A stretch of 63,470 bases of DNA, counting the filler, from Reticulomyxa filosa (taxonomy: Eukaryota > Protista > Foraminifera): the NCBI GenBank assembly GCA_000512085.1. It is 22 parts of 22 records of this genome, joined end to end, with 100 filler letters (N's around TTAATTAATTAA, not from the genome) between each part and the next. Parts side by side here need not be neighbours in the genome. Positions count along the whole stretch, not along the records: positions 59,215 to 63,470 come from ASPP01023538.1; 21 more parts are not named here. One strand, 5' to 3'. The notes beneath the pieces were generated by a model. That model was not told the origin of the DNA. It saw only the letters and a list, made by a program, of their open reading frames with translations, and made no database searches. Position 1 is the first letter of the stretch; the number at the start of each line of letters is the position of its first letter. Both the position numbers and the translations under genes were made by a program. This document shows, in pieces, positions 59,215 through 61,571 of this stretch.

Positions 59215-60444
59215 TTTTTCTCCCAAAATTCAGTATTGGTGGAATAATCCTCTGGGGTCAAATATAGCATTATTTCATCAGTGATTGTGGCTTGCTTATA
59301 TGCGGTGTGCAGTAGTGGTGTATACCCTTGCTATGATATCATGTTACAGACAATACAAACCCATAACGATAACACTAGTATTTGCAGTTTTTTTCACTCC
59401 CAAAAAAAAAAAAAATGAATAGCAGAGAGAACACGAAGGAGATGTAACAAACAAATAAACAATGTCCAATAAAAGGTGCACAAAACATAACATATCGTTC
59501 TTGAGTGCAGATGAACTCTTGCCAATTTTCCTCAGAAATTTTGCCTTTAAGTAGTTGCAACAACGATACCAACGAAACTTTTTGATTGCGAACTGCAAAT
59601 TCCAGCAAAGACGCACCATCCTTTATGAGTACATATATATGTATATGCATATATGGATATATACGTATAAATATTTATGTATGTGTACTGCACGATTTTT
59701 TTTTTTTTTTTAAGTTAATGTTTGCTAAAGTGGTGTATACGTCTTCATAGATCCCCCCTTTGCCCCTTTTTTTTAAAAAAAATTATTTTTTAAATTTTAT
59801 TTATATGAATACGCGTCGTAACTTCTTCAACATGATGCCAAAACGATTGATCAGCGTCTGGAGGGATAAACAATTCAATGGCTTTCATGGAAGTTTGTTT
59901 CCACAAAGCATAGGTCAAAGCGCAATTATCTTCTTTGTTGCGTTCCAAGAGTTGTTTTTGAACAATGAGAGCAGGGATCAAGTTTTGTAAAAGTTCTTGT
60001 GCACATTGATATTCCATGTTTGCACTGTAGGCGATATTGGCAACAAAGTTGGTATCACTGTCGTCTTTTTGCACTTGAACAAAGTTGGAACGAGCAAATT
60101 CCAAAGGATAGCGAAGCATCAAGTTGCACAGATAGCGACTGTTGAATCCGGCCAATTTTAGCTGAAAGTCGAAATGGTTGATCATTTTCTGTTCGAACGA
60201 ACCCTCCCGAAAAGACCGTTGACGTATAATTTCGTACAGTTTTGTTCGCGAACTTTCCATTCGAACATGTCTTTCCATAAGAACTCAACCTCGCAAATGA
60301 TGCTTTGCATCCATTCCAAGTCGGTGTAGATGACATTGAATTTGATATCTTTGTAGCCTTCGGGGATGGGTAAGTGTTTTACAGCACTGCGTTTCCGATG
60401 TTTGTGTGAATTGTTGTTATTTTTTTTGTCATTGCTATTTGACA

Positions 60445-60482
<38 letters not shown>

Positions 60483-61571
60483 TATTATTAGTATTAGTAT
60501 TAGTATTGTTTTCATTAGTATTGCCAGTGGCTCCAGTGGGACCCCTTTCCTCTTCAAAACTATTTTTAACGCGCATGATTTCCAAGTGATCATTGTTTTC
60601 TTGGATGAACTCTTTGAACTTTTGCAGCCCGGCCAAGTAGTCTTCCAACGTATCAAAGGTTGCAGTGCATCGCACCAAGTCCATCAAATGGGCCGACTTT
60701 GGGAACTTTTCGTTGGAATATTCGCTTTGCACCTTCTGTTTGCAGCTCAAGTGGCTTTTCACCGGAGCGCGCAGATACTTGCAGCCGCTGCCGCACTCGC
60801 GAAACACCCTGCGCATTTCCGCCTGAAATCCTTCGTCCAAGTCGTGAGCGCGTTGGATGAGTTCAGTCAAGTAGATGTCAAAGTCCCACGCGTGTTTGGG
60901 GTTGTAGCTAGTCCGTTGGTTGCTATCATAGAAGCTGTTTACACCAGATGTGGAATTGCTAATGTTGTTCCAGTTGTTGTTATTCGCCGAAGAAGAAGAA
61001 GAAGAAGAAGAAGATGATGATGATGAAGACGTAGTTGTAGTTGCTATTGTAGTACCAGTGCTAGTGGTAGTGCTGCTGCTATTTGGTGTACTTATACTAC
61101 GACTGAGACCAGTAAAAGAAGATGACGATGATGAATATTCGGTGCCATGACTACTTGTACGCATACTTCGATAATCCAATTCCTTTTCATCCTTAATCTT
61201 ACACTTCAAACCATATTCGCACTTGTCTTGACGACAGTTTTGCTTTTGGTTCCTGCCCAAGTACTGCGGGTTGATCATCTCGTCGCAGTTGAACTTGCAG
61301 ATGTGCTCGAACACGTTCTCATTTTTGTTGATCTCCTCCTCCAAGTGTCTGCGCAACACTTTGGCCTCCTCTTTGCTCTGGTTGTTGCAAAGGTCGCTGA
61401 TCTTGTGCCATTTCAGTCGCTTCTTGCGTCCGTTCTTTTTTATCAATGAAGTGGACACCAGCGAGGAGGATGGCGAATGCAATGTGTCATTACTTTTTTT
61501 TTCGTCGATTTCTTCTTTGTTTTCTTCAATTGCTTTATTATTATTATTATTATTATTATTAGCAGTAGTAG

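What the first reader, a model, noticed from the sequence alone, without database searches (positions are those of the whole stretch)
60200..60890. RelA/SpoT-like nucleotidyltransferase domain embedded in a eukaryotic ankyrin-like repeat protein
Seen: [12 protein letters not shown] (compare RxKxxxSxxxK), HLMDLVRC (compare DlxgxR), [13 protein letters not shown] (compare GYxxxH) and ICEVEF (compare ExQ), followed by a KLYE helix. This is the order expected for an alarmone-synthetase/Pol-beta NTase core. It is flanked by helical repeats, preceded by a UBA/CUE-like N-terminus, and sits in an intron-containing gene. Inference: a sensor-repeat plus nucleotide-signal or nucleotidyl-transfer architecture, possibly a protist signalling or immunity enzyme distinct from plastid RSH proteins. 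The substitutions at the H and Q positions suggest a product other than ppGpp, or loss of activity.
Basis: partly seen in the sequence, partly recalled or inferred. Interest (0 to 1): 0.7.

Follow-up and report, generated by a model that had tools for sequence, protein, structure and literature searches.

The report
Worn alarmone-synthetase domain in foraminiferan protein
A gene of a likely foraminiferan protist, predicted to be spliced, carries between ankyrin-like repeats a domain predicted to fold like the enzymes bacteria use to make alarm nucleotides; this copy differs at two of its family's nearly invariant positions and is likely a weakened or non-catalytic member of a large, unnamed protein family.

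Summary
The motifs are real, on the minus strand, in three frames. A paralogue named Reticulomyxa filosa ETO35837 reads through both breaks. Both breaks lie in simple repeats of an indel-prone assembly, so they are likely errors; no reads were available.

The paralogue's domain folds confidently (pLDDT 90) and best matches small alarmone synthetases (EAS, RelQ, RelP, CapRel, Tas1; Z 11.5-13.8). Its motifs are of the Tas1/EAS type, not the RelA type. It belongs to a family of 469 clusters, often fused to ankyrin repeats, that Pfam misses. The scan has noted this family four times on other DNA.

New here: this copy departs from its own family at near-invariant sites. Arg is Ser (family 143 of 149) and Gln is Glu (128 of 141); a His site is Gln in the paralogue and unreadable here. 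It sits in a Reticulomyxa-dominated clade rich in decayed copies (7 of 16, against 7 of 117 elsewhere), yet keeps the metal-binding Asp, the Glu and the G-loop Tyr.

Best reading: a likely pseudo-enzyme or weakened paralogue of a predicted repeat-gated pyrophosphokinase family (0.45). Rivals are an altered-specificity enzyme (0.3) and a recent pseudogene (0.2).

The parts
62772..63197 (-). Predicted exon 1 (ATG at 63197); residues about 15-65 weakly CUE-like, then Ser/Pro-rich linker
   Evidence: ORF; in-frame GT-AG intron 62771-62583; Atlas 0.82 to CUE clusters, lead only; no match among the fetched homologues
62493..62582 (-). Predicted exon 2, first ankyrin-like helix pair
   Evidence: Matches N-terminal parts of P0005, P0014, P0152, P0088 (E 2e-5 to 7e-3); splice sites
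59823..62244 (-). Predicted exon 3: ankyrin-like repeats, helical domain, poly-Asn and poly-Ser linkers, RSH-fold domain, C-terminal ankyrin-like repeats; two frame breaks
   Evidence: Colinear with paralogue P0001, 61-88% identity in folded parts and 33-43% in linkers
60198..60894 (-). RelA/SpoT-synthetase-fold domain (Tas1/EAS motif type), about 190 folded residues plus a long loop
   Evidence: Family HMM E 5.9e-47 and 1.9e-11; model of the paralogue's domain pLDDT 90.5; fold matches
60733..60768 (-). Basic donor-phosphate motif P-x-K-x3-[S]-x3-K; Ser at 60747-60745 where the family has Arg
   Evidence: Tas1 shows Arg at this column
60667..60690 (-). D-x-x-R motif: predicted Mg-binding Asp (60681-60679) and Arg (60672-60670), both intact
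   Evidence: Asp 150 of 150, Arg 149 of 150 in the family; spacing equals SaEAS D121/R124
60356..60561 (-). Poly-Asn-expanded loop between the RVKN strand and the acceptor-stacking Tyr; 206 nt (about 68 aa) against a family median of 15 and maximum of 49
60438..60517 (-). Frame break 1, inside an (AAT)n microsatellite (periodicity breaks near 60481)
   Evidence: every GT/GC-AG intron that would bypass it removes the RVKN strand or the Ile-Pro shared with clade members
60332..60358 (-). G-loop Tyr motif Y-x-D-x-K-x-N, intact
60281..60298 (-). E-x-[E] motif: Glu at 60292 intact, second position Glu (60286) where the family has Gln
   Evidence: Gln 128 of 141, Glu 1 of 141 other rows
60240..60246 (-). 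Frame break 2, in an A-run, on the codon of the family's conserved His; the residue cannot be read here (Gln in the paralogue)
59492..59620 (-). Predicted exon 4, ankyrin-like repeat
   Evidence: Phase-0 splice model; matches P0088, P0013, P0003, P0040
59215..59330 (-). Predicted exon 5, ankyrin-like repeat, cut by the contig end

Best explanation
This is likely an expressed foraminiferan gene for a repeat-flanked RelA/SpoT-fold protein that has likely lost most or all pyrophosphate-transfer activity and would act as a nucleotide-binding regulator or scaffold beside catalytically intact paralogues. Shown: the motifs, the family, the substitutions and the clade. Predicted: the fold (from the paralogue). 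Inferred for intact family members: ATP-Mg is bound by the basic helix and the Asp; pyrophosphate is moved to the 3'-OH of a purine nucleotide stacked on the G-loop Tyr, giving (p)ppApp or (p)ppGpp; the flanking ankyrin or WD40 repeats gate this on binding a partner or foreign protein. Inferred for this copy: the family already lacks the two arginines that stack the donor adenine in FaRel2 (Pro and Ser/Thr stand there) and carries two others instead. This copy has lost one of those and has Glu for the adenine-contacting Gln, so donor ATP would be poorly positioned, while the kept Asp, Glu, Tyr and lysines would still bind a nucleotide. The frame breaks are inferred to be assembly errors.
For: Fold: all 25 rows listed by Foldseek are RSH-type synthetases, best 8vx3 at E 2e-6; VIA ranks 1-7 are EAS, RelQ, SAS2/RelP (two rows), CapRel, Tas1 and Rel (Z 13.8-10.8) above TdT (10.1). 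Substitutions: Arg 143 of 149, Gln 128 of 141, His 121 of 136 among other rows; 88 of 126 complete rows deviate at none of 20 key columns. All 5 other rows lacking the Arg have 2-13 further deviations, against 19 of 127 rows with it having two or more. The clade holds 7 of 16 rows with three or more deviations, against 7 of 117 elsewhere, p 2e-4. FaRel2 S70 contacts the triphosphate and Q147 the adenine (PMC11782079 passages); SaEAS Q184 is listed among ATP-binding residues (PMC12691689 passages). Still constrained: window and paralogue are identical at 19 of 19 readable key columns and 20 of 20 other well-conserved ones, against 62 of 87 variable ones. Errors likely: the paralogue is open across both breaks; identity stays about 80% after them; the paralogue's own tail is an off-frame reading; an XPB helicase gene in the same window is also frame-broken.
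Against: 17 of 20 key residues are kept, including the Asp and Tyr whose change inactivates FaRel2 (bioRxiv 10.1101/2021.04.30.441581 passages). Active FaRel2 itself has Ser at the Arg column. Conservation of the key columns exceeds all other columns (p 0.014) but not other conserved columns (55 of 62, p 0.14), so it does not separate 'binds' from 'catalyses' from 'just folds'. No family member has been assayed in any paper I found. Residue equivalences rest on motif spacing and one E 0.26 profile alignment to Tas1, not on a printed structural alignment. The 20 key columns were picked after seeing the alignment. Some 'decayed' rows may be bad gene models. The tree is the quick one. The breaks were not checked against reads.
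Confidence: 0.45

Rival explanations
1. An active enzyme with a re-tuned site: it still transfers pyrophosphate or a nucleotidyl group, but with another donor or acceptor (for example a guanine nucleotide read by the new Glu, or an RNA end), or at a low regulated rate.
For: Asp, Glu, G-loop Tyr and lysines are intact. The substituted Ser and Glu are shared by two paralogues about 0.25 changes per site apart. Sister P0013 decayed to 10 deviations while this pair stayed at 3. RSH enzymes switch acceptors readily.
Against: No other of 133 rows shows the Ser/Glu pair with an otherwise intact site. Arg loss tracks with decay. The loop is longer than in any relative. Swapping syn motifs in Apk2 killed activity without changing specificity (PMC12226406 passages).
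Confidence: 0.3
2. A recent pseudogene: one or both frame breaks are real (microsatellite slippage) and the copy is dying in a birth-and-death expansion.
For: Two breaks within 240 nt. Slippage in (AAT)n and A-runs also happens in vivo. The clade holds many decayed copies.
Against: No in-frame stop or extra divergence after the breaks: 80% identity in both downstream blocks; GC3 0.66 in frame B as in frame A. Similar breaks in XPB, in a bacterial contig and in the paralogue's tail show an indel-prone assembly.
Confidence: 0.2
3. An ordinary ppGpp synthetase (RelA/RelQ-like or plastid RSH) running a stringent-type response.
For: RelQ and RelP are among the top fold matches. SaEAS, the best match, prefers guanylate acceptors.
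Against: No PF04607 hit in the window, the paralogue or 65 homologues scanned. The RSH-type signatures AVR, SxH and IR named in PMC12226406 are absent. No hydrolase, TGS or ACT domain was detected.
Confidence: 0.05

Closest known systems
Exported alarmone synthetase SaEAS (PDB 8vx3) and Tas1/Apk1 (PDB 6ox6)
   Same: Best fold match (8vx3 Z 13.8, rmsd 3.0 over 158; Tas1 Z 11.5). D-x-x-R and E-x-Q spacing as in SaEAS D121/R124, E182/Q184. Tas1 is the top, weak profile hit with the same P-x-K-x3-R-x3-K-x4-Y pattern (E 0.26).
   Different: 18% identity; eukaryotic, predicted spliced, embedded in ankyrin-like repeats; no export or secretion domain seen; this copy lacks the Arg and the Gln.
Housekeeping SAS RelQ/RelP and long RSH (RelA, Rel, SpoT, plastid RSH)
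   Same: Same synthetase fold (Z 8.1-12.6).
   Different: First motif starts with Pro, not Arg; D-x-x-R rather than D-x-x-G-x-R; Lys, not His, after the Tyr; no hydrolase, TGS or ACT domain; PF04607 not hit.
tRNA-pyrophosphorylating toxSAS (CapRel 7ztb, FaRel2)
   Same: Fold (CapRel Z 11.8); sensor-gated enzyme logic is a plausible analogy.
   Different: Motif type differs; no zinc-finger antitoxin; acceptor unknown.
Published eukaryotic RSH outliers: divRel of Dictyostelium, ascomycetes and diatoms; RelA/SpoT N-termini of fungal NLRs
   Same: Non-plastid eukaryotic synthetase-only domains (PMC3153485), some as effector domains of repeat-bearing receptors (PMC10197012).
   Different: Those were found with standard RSH models; the passages read name no foraminifera or ankyrin fusions. 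I did not test whether they are in this family.
Unnamed foraminiferal/protist RelA/SpoT-fold repeat family noted earlier by this scan
   Same: Same description: ankyrin-flanked, Pfam-negative, same fold neighbours.
   Different: This copy carries copy-specific active-site substitutions and lies in a clade rich in decayed members.

Membership tests
RSH synthetase (SYNTH) fold superfamily | Pol-beta-like core with RSH helices, closer to RSH than to other nucleotidyltransferases | tested here: met
   Model of the paralogue's domain, pLDDT 90.5, pTM 0.84; RSH rows rank 1-7 in VIA and fill the Foldseek list. The window copy is 136 of 168 identical over the compared columns.
RSH synthetase (SYNTH) fold superfamily | Mg-binding Asp, E of E-x-Q and acceptor-stacking Tyr | tested here: met
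   Asp 60681, Glu 60292, Tyr 60355 present; equivalence by motif spacing.
RSH synthetase (SYNTH) fold superfamily | Gln of E-x-Q and a full set of donor-binding arginines | tested here: not met
   Glu for Gln; Pro, Ser and Thr at the FaRel2 R64, S70 and R95 columns, leaving only the D+3 Arg.
RSH synthetase (SYNTH) fold superfamily | 3'-pyrophosphokinase activity | not testable with these tools
   Needs an assay.
Pfam RelA_SpoT (PF04607) | Profile hit at the gathering score | tested here: not met
   No hit for window pieces or P0001; 0 of 50 and 0 of 15 homologues (P0088 is in both sets).
Long RSH / plastid RSH | HD hydrolase, TGS or ACT domains | tested here: not met
   None in Pfam scans; the gene's 3' end is cut by the contig end, so later domains are not excluded.
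Tas1/Apk/EAS-type synthetases | D-x-x-R-x-T/S motif and Arg four residues after the first Lys | tested here: inconclusive
   D-x-x-R-C-T met; the K+4 Arg is met by the family (143 of 149) but not by this copy.
Tas1/Apk/EAS-type synthetases | G-x-N after the G-loop Tyr (Apk2 signature) and an export or immunity context | tested here: not met
   The family has D-x-K-x-N against GxN; no secretion domain detected.
Unnamed protist RelA/SpoT-fold repeat family | Significant match to the family profile and placement inside it | tested here: met
   E 5.9e-47 with the paralogue left out; nested in a 17-row clade, support 98.
Ankyrin repeat proteins | Ankyrin profile hit in flanking regions | tested here: inconclusive
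   Under the cutoff directly; above the cutoff in aligned regions of homologues.
CUE/UBA domain | Profile or feature match of exon 1 | tested here: inconclusive
   Atlas 0.82; Pfam none.

The most novel reading that the evidence does not exclude
Foraminifera run a cytosolic alarmone system built from one expanded family: intact paralogues are repeat-gated writers of (p)ppApp or (p)ppGpp, and re-tuned paralogues such as this one are the readers (or use a guanine donor), forming a eukaryotic nucleotide-messenger immune or stress pathway separate from cGAS and from plastid RSH.
Probability: 0.13. Interest if true: 0.85.

Novelty: new variant of a known kind. Interest (0 to 1): 0.45.

Why it matters
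Outside plastids, eukaryotes have a widespread alarmone hydrolase (Mesh1) but only scattered synthetases on record (PMC3153485). A family of at least 469 clusters of Tas1/EAS-type domains fused to repeats, mis-annotated in databases (the paralogues are labelled 'TTK kinase' and 'Ras GEF'), supplies direct candidates. This copy is the wrong one to assay first, but it is a natural control. It shows the family producing constrained near-dead paralogues alongside intact ones in one genome, as kinase and immune-receptor families do (recalled analogy).

Tried and rejected
No whole genome is held, so paralogues were counted only from protein searches. No RNA holder was listed; the one DNA run had a 0.05 share and laid nothing on the domain and one 36-nt piece in an intron. 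This is no evidence on expression or on the breaks. Single-sequence folding of the full paralogue failed (pLDDT 35) and was not used. Word-index homologue searches found only P0001 or nothing. Single-sequence PDB search gave only low-complexity or E above 0.4 hits. PHROGs gave nothing meaningful. PADLOC: 2 families, one member each, of 53 rows. NCBIfam: PRK09169 models hit 1-2 of 53 rows at E 2e-4 to 4e-4; that these are XopAD/SKWP-type effectors is recalled, not checked. No relatives in viral contigs or phages; plasmid hits were chance level, E 4-6. Locus searches with the alignment could not be run. Structural neighbours in BFVD are phage RelA/SpoT and Tas1-like proteins and two giant-virus proteins; no donor is claimed. 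An intron as the cause of either break was rejected: break 2 has one candidate, which deletes the conserved F-L-W-K stretch; all seven candidates for break 1 delete conserved residues. The original Tas1 paper is not held. No complex was predicted, as no binding is claimed. Nine paper searches ran plus one on the genome; no listing described this family. Subscription journals and supplements were not seen.

Full report
Setting. The window is a chain of short contigs joined by N-linker-N spacers. The finding lies on the last contig, 59215-63470, minus strand. No whole genome and no usable reads were available. The nearest database protein, P0001, is named Reticulomyxa filosa ETO35837, 'TTK family protein kinase'; Pfam finds no kinase domain in it. 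I infer that the window is from this foraminiferan or a close relative.

Observation. Every motif quoted is there, in order, over three frames. A profile built from 150 homologues without P0001 scores the first two frames at E 5.9e-47 and 1.9e-11; the best unrelated frame of 2003 in the window scores 0.52. A five-exon model with four phase-0 GT-AG introns is open apart from the two breaks: 63197-62772, 62582-62493, 62244-59823, 59620-59492 and 59330 to the contig end. Other splice choices are possible at the 5' end. Exons 2, 4 and 5 match clade members; exon 1 matches none of the fetched proteins, and its CUE likeness is a lead only (Atlas 0.82). Ankyrin character is below cutoff directly and above it in aligned homologues.

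The breaks. Break 1 is in an (AAT)n run and break 2 in an A-run. P0001 is open across both. Identity to it is 91 of 117 before, 44 of 55 between and 93 of 116 after the breaks. Introns do not explain them without deleting conserved residues. The assembly is indel-prone: an XPB helicase gene at 8715-6336 and a bacterial contig at 32365-33440 are also frame-broken, and P0001's own tail is the off-frame reading of the window's sequence. Errors are therefore likely but unproven. Break 2 falls on the codon of the family's conserved His; two bases are present, and they allow either Gln (as in P0001) or His. My tree label for the window row assumed Gln, but the row had X there.

Family. phmmer with the paralogue's domain found 469 clusters at E 0.001 or better and 155 at 1e-10; the best 150 were fetched. 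Of 50 scanned, 28 have an ankyrin family, 2 WD40, 1 SPRY and none RelA_SpoT at E 1e-4; 15 more gave 1 ankyrin, 3 WD40 and no RelA_SpoT. Of 20 looked up by name, 9 are R. filosa, 2 Bolivina argentea and 9 have no organism. The Atlas gives unnamed eukaryotic clusters at 0.94-0.95 (few members with taxa: ciliates, diatoms), a phage cluster with 24% RelA_SpoT at 0.91, and structure neighbours with ankyrin, TPR, RelA_SpoT and MuF. The range beyond foraminifera is thus suggested, not shown. The scan has noted this family four times on other genomes; sequence and place look-ups found nothing.

Fold. With a 53-row alignment the paralogue's domain folds at pLDDT 90.5, pTM 0.84. Foldseek's 25 listed rows are all RSH-type synthetases, led by SaEAS 8vx3 at E 2e-6. 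VIA ranks 8vx3 (Z 13.8, rmsd 3.0, 158 aligned), RelQ 12.6, SAS2/RelP 12.4 and 12.3, CapRel 11.8, Tas1 11.5 and Rel 10.8 above TdT 10.1 and other nucleotidyltransferases. The family profile's top PDB hit, weak at E 0.26, is the first motif of Tas1, with the same Pro, Lys, Arg, Lys and Tyr columns.

Active site. In P0001 numbering the family keeps P447 K449 R453 K457 Y462, D475 R478, R511 K513 N514, Y542 D544 K546 N548, E563 Q565, K575 H579 Y582 R586 at 88-100%. By spacing these map to FaRel2 R64 K66 S70 K74, D90 G93, Y128, E145 Q147 (PMC11782079, passages) and to SaEAS D121 R124, E182 Q184 (PMC12691689, passages). So the family is of the Tas1/EAS type, with Arg at K+4 and D+3; PMC12226406 (passages) names RYT as the Apk2 signature against AVR in RSH. 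The window copy and P0001 differ from the family at R453 (Ser; family 143 of 149) and Q565 (Glu; 128 of 141), and P0001 also at H579 (Gln; 121 of 136). Of 126 complete rows, 88 deviate nowhere (25 of 151 rows had gaps and were left out of this count). The loop before the Tyr is about 68 residues here, against a median of 15 and a maximum of 49.

Clade. In a quick tree of 134 rows (18 gappy rows dropped), the window and P0001 pair at support 99 inside a 17-row clade at 98, sister to the decayed P0013. Ten of the 16 database rows were looked up and all are R. filosa. Seven of the 16 have three or more deviations, against 7 of 117 outside (p 2e-4). All five other rows without R453 have 2-13 further deviations. 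Against a simple 'dead' reading, the pair is identical at 19 of 19 readable key columns versus 117 of 149 others (p 0.014); against conserved non-key columns (55 of 62) the excess is not significant (p 0.14). The key columns were chosen after viewing the alignment, and some decayed rows may be faulty gene models.

Mechanism. For intact members I infer a repeat-gated 3'-pyrophosphokinase that uses ATP as donor and a purine nucleotide as acceptor. The product cannot be read from sequence: the best fold match makes both alarmones, motif swaps did not convert Apk2, and tRNA-targeting enzymes have no clear signature (bioRxiv 10.1101/2021.04.30.441581, passages). For this copy I infer impaired donor binding with a preserved nucleotide pocket, so a pseudo-enzyme or weak enzyme acting as regulator or scaffold (0.45). 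Rivals are a re-tuned enzyme (0.3), a recent pseudogene (0.2) and an ordinary ppGpp synthetase (0.05).

Literature. PMC3153485 (passages) records plant RSH, Mesh1 and scattered divRel in Dictyostelium, fungi and diatoms, with no 'ankyrin' in the main text. PMC10197012 (passages) notes RelA/SpoT domains on fungal NLRs. PMC3482391 (passages) covers RelA/SpoT toxin domains in MuF and plant-pathogen effectors. The NACHT preprint 10.1101/2022.07.19.500537 (passages) lists alarmone synthetases among bacterial NLR effectors. PMC7229694 and PMC8118318 (passages) gave background only. Searches listed no paper on this family; only listings and the named passages were seen, no supplements, and subscription journals are not covered.

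Verdict. A real feature and a new variant of a known enzyme fold. The family deserves an assay; this copy is most useful as its likely inactive control. Interest 0.45.

Noticed in passing
window 49693-50124 (+): Short intron-free ORF with a Tlde1 domain (PF10908, E 7e-15, above cutoff) in an AT-rich, host-like contig with poly-T tracts. A bacterial cell-wall-enzyme-type domain in a bacterivorous protist, possibly a transferred gene.
   Followed up: partly
window 8715-6336 (-): XPB/ERCC3 helicase gene split by a one-base frame break near 8230; used as a control for assembly errors.
   Followed up: yes
window 26360-27457 (-) and 32365-33440 (+): High-GC contigs encoding a bacterial type IA topoisomerase and a PALP-family (threonine-synthase-like) enzyme, the latter frame-broken; likely bacterial contamination.
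   Followed up: partly
P0001, P0002, P0152 (database names): Family members are mis-named 'TTK family protein kinase' and 'Ras guanine nucleotide exchange factor'; Pfam finds no such domains.
   Followed up: yes
window about 62060-61200 (-): A helical region ending in a W-x-W/F motif and a downstream R-Q-D motif precede the enzyme domain in most relatives; no Pfam name. It may be a family-specific regulatory module.
   Followed up: no
window 875-2483 (+): Uncharacterised spliced gene with a weak ZZ-type zinc finger (E 0.03).
   Followed up: no
window 40450-42108 (-) and 29435-29764 (-): MutL-family C-terminal fragment and G-protein alpha fragment; ordinary.
   Followed up: no
P0008: A 1573-residue relative with two copies of the enzyme domain and ankyrin repeats between them.
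   Followed up: no
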